Below are positions 41,533-46,288 of a stretch of 64,000 nucleotides of DNA, piece by piece. Position numbers and translations under genes: made by a program. The stretch comes from Thermoanaerobaculia bacterium (GTDB lineage: Bacteria; Acidobacteriota; Thermoanaerobaculia; Gp7-AA8): NCBI GenBank assembly GCA_035996815.1, contig DASYJF010000134.1:34096-98095 (forward strand), written 5' to 3'. How positions within the stretch are numbered: position 1 is the first letter of the stretch; each line of letters opens with the position of its first letter. Below the pieces are notes generated by a model. It was given only the letters and a program-made list of their open reading frames with translations, was not told the origin of the DNA and ran no database searches.

Positions 41533-42147
41533 TCACTGACCGATGGGCACGCCGTCGAAAAAATCGACGGTTCCGGTTTCCAGCGAATACTCGGCGCCCA
41601 CGACGAGCAAGCCCCCATCGCGAATGAGCCGTTCGAGGATTTCGGATCCGTGCCGCAGGTGATCGGCGGAGGCGCGAACGTTTGCGCGAACGGCTTCACG
41701 GACCAGCGTCGCCGGATCAAGGTTGCCGCCGGCGGCGATCACGCTTTCGACCGAAGGGCGCACGCGGTCGACGATCGATTGAAGATTCCGGGATTGGGTC
41801 GCCTGTCCGGCTAGCTCCTCGAGCGTGGCGGTAATCGCGCCGCATTGAGTGTGTCCCATGACGACGACCAGCGGCGTTCCAAACCGCGCCGCAGCGAATT
41901 CGACGCTTCCGACCTGCGACGGCGCCACGATGTTGCCGGCCACACGAATGACGAACAGATCGCCGAACCCAAGGTCGAAGACCAGCTCCGCAGGGACGCG
42001 CGAATCCGAGCATCCCAACACGATCGCAAACGGCTCCTGCCCCGCCGCCAGCGAAGCACGATGCCCATGATGTCCGACCGCCTCGGCCTCGACAAATCGC
42101 CGGTTGCCGTCGCGAAGACGGGTGAGTGCTTCGGTTGCCGCGATCAT
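41533..42147 (-). CDS. beta-class carbonic anhydrase
   Basis: Zn-ligand motifs CSDSR and HTQCG. Confidence 0.9.
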   Translation of the reverse strand: MIAATEALTRLRDGNRRFVEAEAVGHHGHRASLAAGQEPFAIVLGCSDSRVPAELVFDLGFGDLFVIRVAGNIVAPSQVGSVEFAAARFGTPLVVVMGHTQCGAITATLEELAGQATQSRNLQSIVDRVRPSVESVIAAGGNLDPATLVREAVRANVRASADHLRHGSEILERLIRDGGLLVVGAEYSLETGTVDFFDGVPIGQ

Positions 42148-42769
42148 TCGATCACCTCTGTGCGACCGCCATTGTCCAACGCGCTCTTGATGTATGACAA
42201 CGCGTGAGCGAAATCATTCAGGACATCGCATTGGTCGACTGAAAGCTCAGCAGACTCTTTGCATTTACGCGCGAAGTTCCGATCTTTCGTTACGAAACAC
42301 TTCCGCCCAGCGCGCGTTTCCGAATGTGATTTGACAGAAGCGAGTACGAGCGCGTCCTGTGGCGAGAGCGAATGCGCATCTTCGTGGAGACCAACCATCA
42401 GCATGGTCGACGTCGTCACCGGAATCATTTCACCGTCGGCTCCGACACTCGCGATTGCAGCAAGAAGCCGATCCCGAGACTCGTCGCTGCCGGCGATCAA
42501 CGCGGCCATCGCCTCTCGATACTGATCCGCGAGGCCGCGGTTCGGCGCCGAGCGCGAGAGCTCCGCAAGATACGCTTGGAGTTGCGTATGGAATTGCTGC
42601 CGTTCCGTATTCTTGCGATGCCAGGTTAAATACGATTCGGTAATGCAGCATGCAGGCAATACGAGAGAGATCGATCGGCTCCCAGCCAATCGCAAAATCT
42701 CTTGGCAGCTCTCGTAACTCTCCTGCATGTAGGCAAGCTCAAGGAGGAAGTTGGTTTCGACGTAGACGA
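42144..42769 (-). CDS. PIN-like domain protein (hypothetical)
   Basis: N-terminal beta-strand VIVYVETNFLLE and C-terminal FVTKDRNF resemble PIN motifs 1 and 4. GTG start overlaps the TGA of the upstream gene; its stop overlaps the ATG of the CA gene. Confidence 0.45.
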
Positions 42770-43216
42770 TCACGCTGCGATATTTGTGCGGATGTAGCCG
42801 TCGCGCACTGCTGCGGCCAGACCCGAGTCTACGAGCCACTTCCGATCGCCGGCGTCGGGCAGGACGCCCATCACCAGCTCGCCAACCCACGATTGGATGA
42901 GCATTTCAAAACCGCTCTGGCTCAGCTTATCGAGAGGTCTACGGAGGCGCGCCAGGTACGGCTGCAACGCATCAGAGGTGTCGCCTTCGTACTCCGGCAG
43001 TGAGACAGGCGGCGTCGGATCGCGCCAGAGATACAGGTGGTTGCGCAATCCAAGGAGGAAGTAGTCCGTTTTCGGGATGTCGCCGTGCGCCAGAATGTTT
43101 CGAAGAAACTCCGCGGCATATTCGGCGGAAGGGGCTTCAACGTTCCTTGCTTCCACCGCAAGAATCGCAATTCCGCGCTTCTCGATCACAAAGTCGACTG
43201 TCTGCCCGTTGCTCAT
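42770..43216 (-). CDS. HsdR_N-like PD-(D/E)XK nuclease-fold protein (hypothetical)
   Basis: N-terminal DFVI...IAILAVEAR matches the D...(E)xK core of restriction-endonuclease-like folds, with Lys replaced by Arg. Confidence 0.4.
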   Translation of the reverse strand: MSNGQTVDFVIEKRGIAILAVEARNVEAPSAEYAAEFLRNILAHGDIPKTDYFLLGLRNHLYLWRDPTPPVSLPEYEGDTSDALQPYLARLRRPLDKLSQSGFEMLIQSWVGELVMGVLPDAGDRKWLVDSGLAAAVRDGYIRTNIAA

Positions 43217-43228
43217 AACCCACGCATT

Positions 43229-43765
43229 CTACTCGCGTCCCCACTCCCCCCTCACCGCCCCGTAGTAGTCCACATCCACGTGTTCGCCCCATTTCACGAT
43301 GTGCTGGCGCATGGTGCCTTCGCGTTTCATGCCGATCTTTTGCAGGACGCGGCCGGACGCGGGATTTGCGGTGAAGTGGAACGCGAAGACGCGGTTCAGG
43401 TTGAGCGTGTTGAAGACGTAATCGACGATCGCGTTCGCGGCCTCGGTCACATAGCCGCGGTTCCAGTACGGGACGCCGATCCAGTAGCCGATCTCGGCGC
43501 GATCGTGATTGCTGTCGACGTGCAAACCGATCGCGCCCATCGCTTCGCCGCCTTCGCGCGGGGTGATCGCGAAGATGTGATTGTGGGACGTGTCGTCGTG
43601 ACCTTCGATCCATTCCGCCGCGGCTCCCTCGGGATATGGATGCGGGATCAGCAGCGTGCTCGCCGCGATCTCGCGATCCGAGGCCAGTCGCTGGATCGCA
43701 GGCGCATCGGCGGGAGTGAATGGGCGCAGCACGAGGCGCTCGGTCGTAATGGTGGGGCGAGGCAT
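43229..43765 (-). CDS. GNAT family N-acetyltransferase (RimJ/RimL-like)
   Basis: GNAT motifs A/B (RGYVTEAANAIVDY; VLQKIGMKREG). Confidence 0.85.
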   Translation of the reverse strand: MPRPTITTERLVLRPFTPADAPAIQRLASDREIAASTLLIPHPYPEGAAAEWIEGHDDTSHNHIFAITPREGGEAMGAIGLHVDSNHDRAEIGYWIGVPYWNRGYVTEAANAIVDYVFNTLNLNRVFAFHFTANPASGRVLQKIGMKREGTMRQHIVKWGEHVDVDYYGAVRGEWGRE

Positions 43766-44631: not shown

Positions 44632-46185
44632 TCAGACGCTGGCGACAAGGTCGCGCACTCTGCCGCGGATGTCCTCCGGCTCGGCGATAAGGCGGTCGCG
44701 CTCGGCGGCATCGAGGAGGGAACGAAGGGCGCGATACGCGTCGCCGCGATCGGACGTTTCGCGAAGAATGGCGATGGGATCGAGGCCGCGGATCGAGAAC
44801 CATTCGTCGACAGCGATGCGCGTTTCTGCCGGCGTCTCGCGCACGAGCGCGCGTGTGTCGCGCCTGATGGCTCGCGCGCGTGAAATGCGAGGCCAGGCGA
44901 ATGCGAGCAGGATGAGGAGCGCCGCCGCGATGCCGATGAATGGAAGCGACTGGCGGGCGGCTTCGACGGGCGCGTTGCCCGGCGCGGGCGGTGGGTGCGA
45001 CTGCAGCAACGCCGCGTCGGCCGCCTGAACCATCAGCGCTCGCTGTTCGCAACGAAGCTCGCGCCGCACACCGGCCGGCGTCAAGATCTGCGCCGTCAGC
45101 GGCGGGATGACGAACATGCCGGTGCTGTTTGGGAAAATCAGAAACCGCCAGCGCCGCGTCATCACCGCTTCATCGCGCCTCTGCACGCTCACCGCCCCCT
45201 CGGCGATTTGCACGCTTCCGTCGATCGCTTGCGCAAACGATGGCGGCGGCGCGGCGCGAAGGTTCGCGGCGCCGGTCATGATCACGCCGACTGCCACCGG
45301 TCCGCCGTTCTTCTGCACCGGCGCCTCGCATTGCAGCGAGATGTCGCCGACCGCGGCGACGGGCGGCCCGGCCGGAATCGGACGCGCGTCGATTGGTAGC
45401 GGCGACGAGCGGCGCTGCACATCGACGACGCTTCCCTCGAACAGACGCAACGGATTGCCGAAGCCGAGCGGCTTCATGATCTGCGCCTCGATCGCGAGCG
45501 GATCGACGGTCAGCGTGCCGTTGCGCAGTGGAAAAAGCGCCACGCGGCGGATGATCAGCTTCTGCAGCGCCACACCGCCGAGGAAAACCTGCTGCGGCGT
45601 CTGACCGCGAGTGTCCAGTTCCTCGACCCAGAAGTCGGCCAGCTTCGGCATCCGCGCGATCCCGTGTTGCTGCACGTTCGCGGCGTTGTAAATCGTCCAC
45701 GTGACGATGACCTGTTCGCCGGTGAAGACGCTGCTCTTGTCCGCCTCGGCGACGACGAGAATCGGATCGCGTCCGGTGGCTATGAGCTCGTGAAGGATGC
45801 GGATCGGATCATTCGTCCCGGCGGCGAGATCGGGAAGCACCTGAATCGACAGCGGCGCGAGCGTCTCGACGTCTCCGTCCGCACCGTGCAACGTCAACGG
45901 TCCGACGAGGGCTGCGCCGGGATGGATCGGACGCGCGACGTAGCGCAGCACTTTGCGCCGCGACGACTGCCCGTTGATCCACGAGAACTCCGACGACACG
46001 GACGGCGATCCGTCGATGACGAGGTTCTGCAGTGGGAGCTGGAGATTTTCCGCCGAGGCGAAGGCGTCCGTGAGGGTGAGCGTGATGGTGAGGGCGTCGT
46101 CGGTGGAGAGGGTTCGTTTATCGACCTGAAGGTCGCTTGCCATCGCGGGTAGCGCGATTATCAAAAGGAGAAAGGCAATGTTGAA
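44632..46185 (-). CDS. BatD-like protein (Bat operon); 5' end uncertain, ORF continues into a heptamer repeat
   Basis: Last gene of the Bat cluster; BatD-like length with a C-terminal TM. Confidence 0.65.
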   Translation of the reverse strand, partial: FNIAFLLLIIALPAMASDLQVDKRTLSTDDALTITLTLTDAFASAENLQLPLQNLVIDGSPSVSSEFSWINGQSSRRKVLRYVARPIHPGAALVGPLTLHGADGDVETLAPLSIQVLPDLAAGTNDPIRILHELIATGRDPILVVAEADKSSVFTGEQVIVTWTIYNAANVQQHGIARMPKLADFWVEELDTRGQTPQQVFLGGVALQKLIIRRVALFPLRNGTLTVDPLAIEAQIMKPLGFGNPLRLFEGSVVDVQRRSSPLPIDARPIPAGPPVAAVGDISLQCEAPVQKNGGPVAVGVIMTGAANLRAAPPPSFAQAIDGSVQIAEGAVSVQRRDEAVMTRRWRFLIFPNSTGMFVIPPLTAQILTPAGVRRELRCEQRALMVQAADAALLQSHPPPAPGNAPVEAARQSLPFIGIAAALLILLAFAWPRISRARAIRRDTRALVRETPAETRIAVDEWFSIRGLDPIAILRETSDRGDAYRALRSLLDAAERDRLIAEPEDIRGRVRDLVASV

Positions 46186-46288
46186 TGTTGAATGTTGAAT
46201 GTTCAATGTTGAATGAGGAGGCCGAGGGCGTTTCCGCCGTCCCCTCCATCCAACATTCACCATTGAACATTCAACATTCAACATTCGC
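46177..46288. repeat. AATGTTG-heptamer inverted-repeat hairpin between batC and batD
   Basis: (aatgttg)x5 ... loop ... (caacatt)x5 with minor variants. Confidence 0.85.

What the first reader, a model, noticed from the sequence alone, without database searches (positions are those of the whole stretch)
42144..43216. Translationally coupled HsdR_N-like nuclease-fold gene plus PIN-like gene: candidate uncharacterised two-gene toxin/defence-type module
Two hypothetical genes of 148 and 208 aa are chained by GTGA and ATGA start/stop overlaps at the 3' end of the long same-strand transcription unit. That unit also carries the Bat operon, a LolA-like gene and a GNAT gene, and runs on into a beta-carbonic anhydrase. 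The first protein opens with D-F-V-I...(9)...I-L-A-V-E-A-R, which fits the PD-(D/E)XK core of HsdR_N/restriction-endonuclease-like folds except that the Lys is replaced by Arg. The second has PIN-like motifs: N-terminal VYVETNFLLE and C-terminal FVTKDRNF. Nuclease-fold plus PIN pairings with tight coupling are the hallmark of toxin-antitoxin and anti-phage modules, but this pairing and context (fused to a housekeeping CA gene) is not a described system.
Basis: inference. Interest (0 to 1): 0.65.

Follow-up and report, generated by a model that had tools for sequence, protein, structure and literature searches.

The report
Unreported nuclease-fold partner of PIN toxin
Two overlapping small genes, one a VapC-like PIN RNase and the other an unnamed protein with a restriction-nuclease-like motif, form a mobile cassette that behaves like a toxin-antitoxin or defence module; I found no description of the pairing, and it recurs in soil Acidobacteriota and on cyanobacterial plasmids.

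Summary
On the minus strand, gene A (42770-43216, 148 aa) and gene B (42144-42773, 209 aa, not 208) overlap by GTGA. B overlaps the beta-carbonic anhydrase gene by ATGA.

B is a true PIN domain. It passes Pfam PIN_12 (formerly DUF4935), its AlphaFold model matches VapC toxins, and four acidic residues are conserved.

A has no Pfam, NCBIfam or PADLOC family, but it belongs to a large family (1143 clusters at 50% identity). That family has a near-invariant D...E-x-K/R motif and only weak, partial similarity to HSDR_N_2 and PD-(D/E)xK domains.

The pairing is almost absolute:
- B follows A in all 15 loci found through A.
- A precedes B in 77 of 78 loci found through B.
- All 81 intact pairs share the 4-nt NTGA overlap.

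The cassette sits in dozens of unrelated contexts. These include a cyanobacterial plasmid, next to its partition genes, and two copies in one genome. A related genome has GNAT and the carbonic anhydrase gene directly overlapping with no cassette.

At the shared site the flanks are 86-97% identical, but A is 61-84% and B 48-59%. B alone is broken in 12 loci, A alone in none.

Best reading: a toxin-antitoxin or abortive-infection type module with PIN as the toxic effector. No function has been tested.

The parts
42770..43216 (-). Gene A, 148 aa. Unnamed family of about 150-aa proteins, proposed cognate partner (neutraliser or regulator) of the PIN protein.
   Evidence: ORF. No Pfam, NCBIfam or PADLOC hit. 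53 close clusters and 1143 cluster representatives at E<=1e-3. AlphaFold2 pLDDT 90.3.
43145..43195 (-). Codons for the D8 ... E22-A-R24 motif of A (beta-hairpin 9-13 / 16-24). It resembles the PD-(D/E)xK motif with Arg in place of Lys.
   Evidence: Codons checked. In 70 non-identical homologues, D8 is kept in 68/70 and E22 in 70/70; position 24 is K in 40, R in 22, T in 3 and S in 3. The consensus of 115 representatives is VEVK. HSDR_N_2 aligns only to this hairpin.
42144..42773 (-). Gene B, 209 aa, GTG start. VapC-like PIN domain of Pfam family PIN_12 with a long helical hairpin insert (about residues 41-113). Proposed toxic RNase effector.
   Evidence: PIN_12 scores 40.3 bits against a cutoff of 32, and PIN scores 30.3 against 23.6. 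All 36 aligned homologues hit both families. Model pLDDT is 91.8. The top PDB matches are all VapC toxins, probability 1.0. Conserved acidic residues are E6, E46 and D140 (invariant) and D164 (at least 90%), with codons at 42756-42758, 42636-42638, 42354-42356 and 42282-42284.
42770..42773 (-). GTGA overlap of the A stop and B start (translational coupling).
   Evidence: The same NTGA overlap occurs in 81 of 81 intact pairs elsewhere (GTG 51, ATG 23, TTG 7).
42144..42147 (-). ATGA overlap of the B stop with the start of the beta-carbonic anhydrase gene. This is the downstream boundary of the inserted cassette.
   Evidence: In the cassette-free relative L116 the same ATGA joins GNAT directly to the carbonic anhydrase gene.
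43229..43765 (-). GNAT acetyltransferase gene. Upstream flank of the insertion site; context, not part of the module.
   Evidence: Pfam Acetyltransf_3, E 5e-37. It is 86-97% identical across loci where A and B are only 48-84% identical.
41533..42147 (-). Beta-carbonic anhydrase gene. Downstream flank of the insertion site; context, not part of the module.
   Evidence: Pfam Pro_CA, E 5e-39. Homologues up to 98% identical.

Best explanation
A and B form a self-contained, horizontally mobile two-gene cassette of the toxin-antitoxin (addiction or abortive-infection) type.

Shown here:
- B is a VapC-like PIN_12 domain with a conserved acidic tetrad (E6, E46, D140, D164).
- A and B are always adjacent, in the same order, with a 4-nt NTGA overlap, so they are very probably made together by coupled translation.
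- In this genome the cassette is an insertion between a GNAT gene and a beta-carbonic anhydrase gene at the end of the Bat operon, and it has no demonstrated link to those genes.

Inferred:
- B is a metal-dependent RNase whose free form is harmful to the cell.
- A, a folded 148-aa protein built around a PD-(D/E)xK-like D...E-x-K/R hairpin, binds and neutralises or gates B.
- Loss of the cassette, or a trigger such as phage infection or stress, frees B to cleave RNA and arrest growth.
For: Identity of B:
- It passes the Pfam PIN_12 and PIN gathering scores.
- Its AlphaFold2 model (pLDDT 91.8) has only VapC toxins as its best PDB matches (2fe1, 5ecw, 3zvk, 7vwo and others; probability 1.0, TM-score on the target 0.6-0.7).
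- E6, E46 and D140 are invariant and D164 is at least 90% conserved in 36 homologues.

Obligate pairing:
- B lies directly after A in all 15 genome loci found with A alone, and in the lookups made through A or B.
- A lies directly upstream of B in 77 of the 78 metagenome loci found with B alone that have room upstream.
- 81 of 81 intact pairs share the NTGA overlap.
- A and B co-diverge: r = 0.89 over 2415 pairwise comparisons.

Mobility:
- 261 flanking ORFs fall into 172 clusters, and 150 cluster representatives match 120 Pfam families, mostly housekeeping.
- One MAG carries two copies (L011 and L019).
- The pair is on cyanobacterial and Hymenobacter plasmids. On a 29.6-kb mobilizable Tolypothrix plasmid it lies about 900 bp downstream of the ParA-like and CopG genes.
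- One locus sits beside VapBC-like and RelE/HTH modules.

Insertion:
- L116 has the same Bat-GNAT-CA-AKR-OYE synteny, with GNAT and the carbonic anhydrase gene overlapping by ATGA and no cassette.

Conflict-like evolution:
- At the shared site, GNAT and the carbonic anhydrase are 86-97% identical to the window, but A is 61-84% and B 48-59%.
- Loci with more distant flanks (72-79%) carry a closer cassette (A 73%, B 69-70%).

Asymmetric decay:
- B alone is disrupted in 12 independent loci, A alone in none, and both in one (L024). The lesions are nonsense codons, frameshifts, an internal deletion, a 2-kb insertion, an IS200/IS605 insertion and replacement by an ISH3 element.
- Under a gene-length null this gives 0.585^12 = 0.0016, or 0.023 for the 7 cases from the B-anchored set alone.
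Against: - No toxicity, neutralisation or A-B binding has been shown, and no complex model could be run.
- A does not look like a classical type II antitoxin. It has no AbrB, RHH, Phd or HTH domain, it is fully folded (pLDDT 90), and it evolves no faster than B (mean identity 0.43 against 0.44).
- A keeps nuclease-like catalytic residues, which a passive inhibitor would not need.
- Both proteins are acidic (pI about 4.9 and 5.6).
- In the window the cassette has no promoter of its own that I could detect and lies 12 nt after GNAT.
- One intact B (L101) has no A in the 370 nt upstream.
- No PADLOC model matches, and there are no homologues in phage records or viral contigs.
- Some B frameshifts could be assembly errors, and the loci found through A are biased towards an intact A.
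Confidence: 0.6

Rival explanations
1. A two-component anti-phage defence system rather than a plain addiction module. A is an active or ligand-binding PD-(D/E)xK-type sensor or second nuclease that recognises an infection cue (foreign DNA or RNA ends) and releases or activates the PIN RNase to abort infection.
For: - D8, E22 and K/R24 of A are conserved across 1143 clusters, which suggests a working active or binding site.
- A single-gene PIN_12 protein (Cosus/Brc24) gives phage resistance that depends on its PIN residues (bioRxiv 10.1101/2024.07.02.601719).
- The cassette is hypervariable relative to its flanks, and its relationships are decoupled from theirs.
- B alone decays, as expected for a costly effector.
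Against: - No PADLOC family hit for either protein or their relatives.
- Flanking genes are mostly housekeeping, with no recurrent defence families among 150 neighbour representatives.
- Nothing shows that A is catalytically active. Only a 28-residue hairpin aligns to HSDR_N_2.
Confidence: 0.25
2. A housekeeping heteromeric RNase: A and B together process or degrade a cellular RNA as a normal part of physiology in Thermoanaerobaculia, co-expressed with the Bat/GNAT/carbonic anhydrase operon.
For: - Tight operon integration in the window: a 12-nt gap after GNAT and an ATGA overlap with the carbonic anhydrase gene.
- Neighbours are mostly housekeeping genes.
- The GNAT-A-B-CA arrangement is stable in about 10 sampled loci.
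Against: - A close relative has the same operon without the pair (L116).
- Dozens of unrelated contexts, plasmid copies and a two-copy genome.
- 12 loci have B inactivated.
- The pair evolves far faster than its flanks.
Confidence: 0.08
3. Coincidental adjacency of two unrelated hypothetical genes, or spurious ORFs in high-GC DNA.
For: High-GC DNA produces many long spurious ORFs in this window.
Against: - Both proteins have hundreds of conserved homologues.
- Both have confident structure models.
- Adjacency with an identical overlap is conserved across phyla.
Confidence: 0.01

Closest known systems
VapBC type II toxin-antitoxin systems (PIN toxin VapC plus upstream DNA-binding antitoxin VapB)
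   Same: - The downstream gene is a VapC-like PIN domain with four conserved acidic residues.
- The upstream partner overlaps it by 4 nt.
- The cassette is mobile, patchy in distribution, sometimes plasmid-borne and sometimes multi-copy.
- The toxin gene decays preferentially.
   Different: - The upstream protein is about 150 aa and fully folded, with no AbrB, RHH, Phd or HTH domain and a PD-(D/E)xK-like motif instead.
- It evolves no faster than the toxin.
- The first PIN acidic residue is Glu, not Asp.
- The PIN carries a helical hairpin insert of about 70 residues.
- No autoregulatory promoter is evident in the window.
PIN_12 / DUF4935 proteins, including the single-gene phage-defence protein Cosus (Brc24)
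   Same: B passes the Pfam PIN_12 gathering score. Cosus shows that a PIN_12 domain can mediate phage resistance through its acidic residues.
   Different: - The DUF4935 proteins described by Matelska et al. 2017 are about 350 aa, carry an extra C-terminal alpha/beta region, and are reported as 'usually mono-cistrons'.
- Here the PIN is about 200 aa and is almost always paired with A.
- I could not test whether A is related to that C-terminal region.
DUF1308 / human C7orf25 (N-terminal PD-(D/E)XK-like domain fused to a C-terminal PIN-like domain)
   Same: Same two fold types in the same N-to-C order as the A-then-B gene order. Also found in some cyanobacteria, and its function is unknown.
   Different: - It is a single polypeptide, mostly eukaryotic, and its PIN often lacks the acidic residues.
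- No DUF1308 hit was found for A, B or their relatives at E<=0.1.
- The resemblance is in architecture only. Homology was not shown.
HSDR_N_2 / HsdR_N and the N-terminal PD-(D/E)xK nuclease domains of type IIG/IIL restriction enzymes (BpuSI, DrdV)
   Same: - The D...E-x-K motif sits on a beta-hairpin followed by helix-strand.
- There are weak HSDR_N_2 hits in relatives.
- BpuSI and DrdV are the top Foldseek hits.
   Different: - All matches are below threshold: 18.5 bits against a cutoff of 25, Foldseek E about 0.05, TM-score about 0.3.
- A has only 7 residues before the Asp, so the first helix and strand of the canonical core are missing.
- A has a C-terminal helical half (residues 80-137) of its own.
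- No methyltransferase, helicase or specificity partner is present.

Membership tests
Pfam PIN_12 (PF16289, formerly DUF4935) | Score above the family's gathering threshold over the whole profile | tested here: met
   40.3 bits against a cutoff of 32; residues 3-167 match profile positions 1-172 of 172. 36 of 36 homologues match.
Pfam PIN_12 (PF16289, formerly DUF4935) | Architecture described in the literature: about 350 aa with a C-terminal alpha/beta region, monocistronic | tested here: not met
   B and its 397 relatives are about 200 aa and are paired with A in 77 of 78 loci.
VapC-type PIN toxin | PIN fold with four conserved acidic residues | tested here: met
   The top Foldseek matches are all VapC, probability 1.0. 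E6, E46 and D140 are invariant and D164 is at least 90% conserved. The first residue is Glu rather than Asp.
VapBC type II toxin-antitoxin system | Upstream antitoxin with a DNA-binding domain (AbrB, RHH, Phd/YefM or HTH) and a toxin-binding tail | tested here: not met
   A has no Pfam or NCBIfam hit at E<=1. Its model is globular with pLDDT 90 and no disordered tail.
VapBC type II toxin-antitoxin system | Toxicity of the PIN protein and its neutralisation by the partner | not testable with these tools
   There is only indirect support: B-only lesions in 12 loci against 0 A-only lesions.
Toxin-antitoxin modules in general | Compact two-gene operon that is horizontally mobile, patchy in distribution and found on plasmids | tested here: met
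   NTGA overlap in 81 of 81 pairs. 172 neighbour clusters. Plasmid copies. Empty site in L116. Two copies in one MAG.
PD-(D/E)xK nuclease superfamily / HSDR_N_2 (PF13588) | Conserved D ... (D/E)-x-K motif on adjacent strands | tested here: met
   D8 is kept in 68/70 and E22 in 70/70; position 24 is K or R in 62/70. The consensus is VEVK. The strands are 9-13 and 16-24. The window protein has Arg at position 24.
PD-(D/E)xK nuclease superfamily / HSDR_N_2 (PF13588) | Significant profile or structural match to the whole domain (alpha-beta-beta-beta-alpha-beta core) | tested here: inconclusive
   - The window protein has no hit.
- 16 of 115 relatives hit HSDR_N_2 below the cutoff (best E 5e-4).
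- The one match inspected (P0229) covers residues 2-29 against profile positions 38-65 of 110.
- Foldseek gives BpuSI and DrdV at E about 0.05 and TM-score about 0.3.
- There is no PDB sequence hit.
Known anti-phage defence systems (PADLOC-DB v2) | Match to a model of a known or candidate defence protein | tested here: not met
   No hit for A or B at E<=1. Among 36 B relatives and 115 A relatives there were only stray hits, with E between 6e-4 and 0.01.
DUF1308 (PF07000; fused PD-(D/E)XK-like plus PIN-like) | Sequence match to the family profile | tested here: not met
   No DUF1308 hit for A or B at E<=1, nor for 115 A relatives or 36 B relatives at E<=0.1. No profile-profile test was possible.

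The most novel reading that the evidence does not exclude
A is a catalytically active, minimal PD-(D/E)xK nuclease rather than a passive inhibitor. The cassette would then work in one of two ways:
- a toxin-antitoxin system with an enzymatic antitoxin, for example one that cleaves a nucleic acid needed for PIN expression or activity; or
- a dual-nuclease defence module in which A senses or cuts invading nucleic acid and licenses the PIN RNase.

It could also be the prokaryotic split counterpart of the uncharacterised eukaryotic PD-(D/E)XK-PIN fusion DUF1308 (C7orf25).
Probability: 0.18. Interest if true: 0.75.

Novelty: new variant of a known kind. Interest (0 to 1): 0.55.

Why it matters
PIN-domain toxin-antitoxin systems are among the most abundant mobile modules in prokaryotes. 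The PIN_12/DUF4935 branch has been listed as 'function unknown, usually monocistronic'. Here its short form turns out to be almost always coupled to one unnamed protein family of at least 1143 clusters at 50% identity. That family has no database model and keeps nuclease-like catalytic residues.

If the pair is a toxin-antitoxin or defence system, it adds a new class of partner for VapC-like toxins: a folded, PD-(D/E)xK-like protein. It would also give a function to two 'hypothetical' families that are common in soil Acidobacteriota and cyanobacteria, and it offers a tractable two-gene system for experiments.

For annotating this window, it shows that the pair is an inserted selfish or defence cassette and not part of Bat operon or carbonic anhydrase physiology.

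Tried and rejected
- Profile searches of A against PDB sequences found nothing meaningful. The gelsolin matches are chance.
- PADLOC, NCBIfam and Pfam gave nothing for A.
- PADLOC on 36 B relatives and 115 A relatives gave only stray weak hits.
- Phage records (tblastn with A) and viral contigs (scan with the B alignment) contained no homologue. The A alignment was too divergent to seed a viral scan.
- Literature searches for DUF4935/PIN_12, for HSDR_N_2, and for PIN together with restriction-endonuclease-like antitoxins found no description of this pair. One search was rejected for its syntax.
- Promoter and terminator scan: no terminator, and one promoter-like site, which is no more than chance predicts.
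- GC content of the cassette (0.57-0.60) is a little lower than that of most neighbours (0.62-0.69). Similar dips occur elsewhere, so this is not used as evidence.
- Charge: both proteins are acidic, so pI does not help to tell toxin from antitoxin.
- I considered that A might be the detached C-terminal domain of long DUF4935 proteins. None of the 150 best A-profile hits is a long protein with a C-terminal match, but no long DUF4935 sequence was available for a direct test.
- I considered a DUF1308 relationship. No HMMER signal was found.
- The housekeeping-RNase reading is rejected on the empty site, the mobility and the B pseudogenes.
Full report
**1. What is in the sequence**

All four genes lie on the minus strand.
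- A GNAT acetyltransferase gene occupies 43229-43765.
- Gene A follows 12 nt later (43216 down to 42770, 148 aa, ATG start).
- Gene B runs from 42773 down to 42144 (GTG start).
- The A stop and B start share GTGA.
- The beta-carbonic anhydrase gene (42147 down to 41533) starts inside the B stop, sharing ATGA.

The only slip is spacing: DFVI and ILAVEAR in A are separated by 6 residues, not 9. Pfam confirms GNAT (Acetyltransf_3, E 5e-37) and Pro_CA (E 5e-39).

**2. Gene B is a VapC-like PIN domain**

- B passes the gathering scores of Pfam PIN_12 (PF16289, formerly DUF4935; 40.3 bits against 32, covering the whole 172-position profile) and of PIN (PF01850; 30.3 against 23.6).
- All 36 aligned homologues do the same.
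- In that alignment E6, N8, E12, E46 and D140 are invariant and D164 is at least 90% conserved. This gives the four acidic positions of a PIN active site, with Glu rather than Asp in the first strand.
- An AlphaFold2 model built with the alignment has pLDDT 91.8.
- The model's best PDB matches are all VapC toxins (PAE0151, Shigella VapC, Rickettsia VapC2, several M. tuberculosis VapCs) at probability 1.0 and TM-score on the target of 0.6-0.7.
- Two long helices (about residues 41-113) form an insertion after the second strand.

**3. Gene A is an unnamed family with a nuclease-like motif**

A has no hit in Pfam, NCBIfam or PADLOC, even at E<=1. RefSeq calls its plasmid homologues 'hypothetical protein'. 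The word-indexed search found 53 close clusters, all hypothetical. An exhaustive profile search found 1143 cluster representatives at E<=1e-3 and 663 at E<=1e-10. Almost all of the 150 listed are stand-alone proteins of about 150 aa.

The consensus of 115 representatives reads D..VY....L.L.VEVK....S..WAA..RRNLL.HG..P...YFLLA.PD.FYLW. Among 70 non-identical homologues taken from loci:
- D8 is kept in 68;
- E22 is kept in 70;
- position 24 is K in 40, R in 22, T in 3 and S in 3.

The AlphaFold2 model is confident (pLDDT 90.3). It places D8 at the start of strand 9-13 and E22/R24 at the end of strand 16-24. A helix (31-44) and two more strands follow, and then a helical C-terminal half.

Evidence that this is a true PD-(D/E)xK domain is suggestive only.
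- 16 of 115 relatives give sub-threshold HSDR_N_2 hits (best E 5e-4).
- The one inspected aligns only residues 2-29 to profile positions 38-65 of 110.
- The best Foldseek PDB hits are BpuSI and DrdV, which carry N-terminal PD-(D/E)xK nuclease domains, at E about 0.05 and TM-score about 0.3.
- BFVD hits are equally weak, although several carry nuclease or HsdR_N annotations.
- PDB sequence searches found nothing.
- Only seven residues precede D8, so the first helix and strand of the canonical core are absent or supplied from elsewhere.

**4. The pairing is conserved**

- Starting from A: every one of 15 loci in species-representative genomes has B immediately downstream. Most are Thermoanaerobaculia, with also Holophagales, an Acidobacteria gp7 genome and one MAG labelled Nitrospiraceae.
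- Starting from B: of 80 metagenome loci, 77 have A directly upstream, two have no room, and one (L101) has an intact B with 370 nt of unrelated upstream sequence.
- Remote A relatives (about 30% identity) are also followed by a PIN_12 gene with a 4-nt overlap. One is in a cyanobacterial-type context and one sits beside VapBC-like and RelE/HTH modules.
- In all 81 loci where both genes are intact and complete, the B start (GTG 51, ATG 23, TTG 7) overlaps the A TGA stop by 4 nt.
- Pairwise identities of A and B across 70 pairs correlate at r = 0.89, with similar means of 0.43 and 0.44.

Matelska et al. 2017 (PMC5499597) listed DUF4935 as function unknown and 'usually mono-cistrons'. My literature searches found no description of this partner.

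**5. The pair behaves as a mobile accessory cassette**

- The 261 flanking ORFs of 102 loci fall into 172 clusters.
- 150 cluster representatives match 120 different Pfam families, mostly metabolic or housekeeping, with no recurrent defence or transposase family.
- Only two contexts recur about ten times each: GNAT...carbonic anhydrase, as in the window, and DEAD helicase...GGDEF.
- One MAG has two copies (L011 and L019).
- Eight plasmids carry A (cyanobacteria and Hymenobacter), and seven of them also carry B.
- On a 29.6-kb mobilizable Tolypothrix plasmid the pair lies about 900 bp downstream of a ParA-like ATPase and a CopG gene.
- No homologue occurs in phage records or viral contigs.

*Empty site.* Contig JBBRTE010000008.1 (L116) has the same order: Bat genes, BatD, LolA-like gene, GNAT, carbonic anhydrase, aldo-keto reductase, OYE, aldehyde dehydrogenase. 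There GNAT and the carbonic anhydrase gene overlap directly by ATGA and there is no A or B. Another relative (L115) has two different genes at that position.

**6. Evolution at the shared site**

The table gives percent identity to the window proteins for loci that share the GNAT-A-B-CA arrangement.

| Locus | GNAT | CA | A | B |
|---|---|---|---|---|
| L012 | 96.6 | 97.5 | 62.7 | 58.3 |
| L001 | 93.8 | 92.6 | 61.5 | 48.3 |
| L042 | 90.4 | 87.1 | 83.8 | 54.7 |
| L011 | 77.5 | 72.0 | 73.2 | 70.0 |

L034 resembles L011: more distant flanks but a closer cassette. The cassette therefore either evolves much faster than its neighbours or is exchanged between genomes at a fixed site. Both patterns are typical of conflict systems. 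The A/B discordance in L042 hints at exchange within the cassette.

**7. Asymmetric decay**

B alone is disrupted in 12 loci:

| Locus | Lesion in B |
|---|---|
| L021 | frameshift |
| L023 | C-terminal frameshifts |
| L025 | in-frame loss of about residues 14-130 |
| L031 (Chroococcidiopsis pCHRO.01) | IS200/IS605 tnpA-tnpB insertion |
| L032 (Nostoc plasmid) | replaced by an ISH3 transposase; a sister plasmid with an identical A keeps B |
| L047 | insertion of about 2 kb |
| L056 | stop at codon 181 |
| L060 | frameshift |
| L088 | stop at codon 79 |
| L095 | stop at codon 101 |
| L106 | frameshift |
| L108 | stop near codon 24 |

A is intact wherever it is fully on the contig. Only L024 has both genes damaged, and no locus has a broken A with an intact B.

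If lesions fell in proportion to gene length, 12 to 0 has probability 0.0016. The 7 to 0 split in the set found through B, where A was not a selection criterion, has probability 0.023.

Caveats: some frameshifts may be assembly errors, and the loci found through A are biased towards an intact A. The pattern is what is expected if B is the harmful component and A is needed while B is active.

**8. Interpretation**

The best-supported reading (confidence about 0.6) is a toxin-antitoxin or abortive-infection type cassette. The PIN_12 RNase B is the toxic effector. A is its co-translated partner that neutralises or gates it. What is shown is the identity of B, the obligate coupling, the mobility, the insertion and the decay asymmetry. 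Toxicity, binding and the trigger are inferred.

A is not a classical antitoxin. It has no DNA-binding domain and no disordered tail, it does not evolve faster than B, and it keeps nuclease-like residues. This leaves open a defence-system reading in which A senses or cuts nucleic acid (about 0.25). A single-gene PIN_12 defence protein, Cosus, is known.

A housekeeping RNase role (about 0.08) is contradicted by the empty site, the plasmid and multi-copy occurrences, and the B pseudogenes.

**9. Comparison with known systems**

- The module works like VapBC but fails the VapB criterion.
- B is a member of Pfam PIN_12 but not of the 350-aa monocistronic DUF4935 architecture.
- A shares the motif of PD-(D/E)xK/HSDR_N_2 domains but not a significant full-domain match.
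- The eukaryotic DUF1308/C7orf25 family fuses a PD-(D/E)XK-like domain to a PIN-like domain in the same order, but HMMER shows no relationship.
- No PADLOC system matches.

I therefore class it as a new variant of a known kind: a PIN toxin module with a partner family that my searches found undescribed.

**10. Verdict**

- B is 209 aa.
- B belongs to a named Pfam family.
- The nuclease-fold call for A is weak and partial.
- The Bat/carbonic anhydrase context is incidental.

Interest is 0.55. The partner family is widespread, I found no description of it, and it is directly testable. It extends a familiar class rather than defining a new one.

Noticed in passing
window 46177-46287: A palindromic element: about five tandem AATGTTG heptamers, a spacer of about 33 nt, then about five inverted CAACATT heptamers. 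An 18-mer built from the repeat matches 8 times against 0.04 expected by chance. It lies at the 5' end of the BatD-like ORF, next to the upstream TPR gene, and occurs only at this site in the window.
   Followed up: partly
L116 4456-5630 (GCA_038244715.1, JBBRTE010000008.1): A cassette-free version of the window's operon. GNAT and the beta-carbonic anhydrase gene overlap directly by ATGA, and the Bat genes upstream and the AKR/OYE/aldehyde dehydrogenase genes downstream are the same.
   Followed up: yes
L115 3024-4994 and L114 3759-4881: The position just upstream of carbonic anhydrase homologues holds other cargo in other genomes. L115 has an unknown 452-aa gene plus a glyoxalase gene between GNAT and the carbonic anhydrase gene. 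L114 has an Xre-RES (ParST/MbcTA-like) toxin-antitoxin pair directly upstream of the carbonic anhydrase gene.
   Followed up: no
window 42720-42770 (B residues 2-18), and the same region in L030, L031 and L034-L113: The N-terminus of B, IVYVE[TS]NF[LV]LE..QE, is invariant or nearly so from Acidobacteriota to cyanobacterial plasmids, although whole-protein identity falls to 25-35%. It might be the interface with A, part of the active site, or a recombination anchor at the A/B junction. In L042 A is 84% identical to the window but B only 55%.
   Followed up: partly
L031 5441-7709 (Chroococcidiopsis thermalis pCHRO.01) and L032 (Nostoc sp. UHCC 0302 plasmid unnamed5): IS elements sit exactly in or in place of the PIN gene while A stays intact. 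In pCHRO.01 it is an IS200/IS605 tnpA plus a TnpB gene. In the Nostoc plasmid it is an ISH3 transposase, and the sister plasmid unnamed4 keeps the PIN.
   Followed up: yes
L101 1-1038: The only intact B homologue found with room upstream but no A there (370 nt of unrelated sequence). It is either a true orphan or is served by an A gene elsewhere in that genome.
   Followed up: partly
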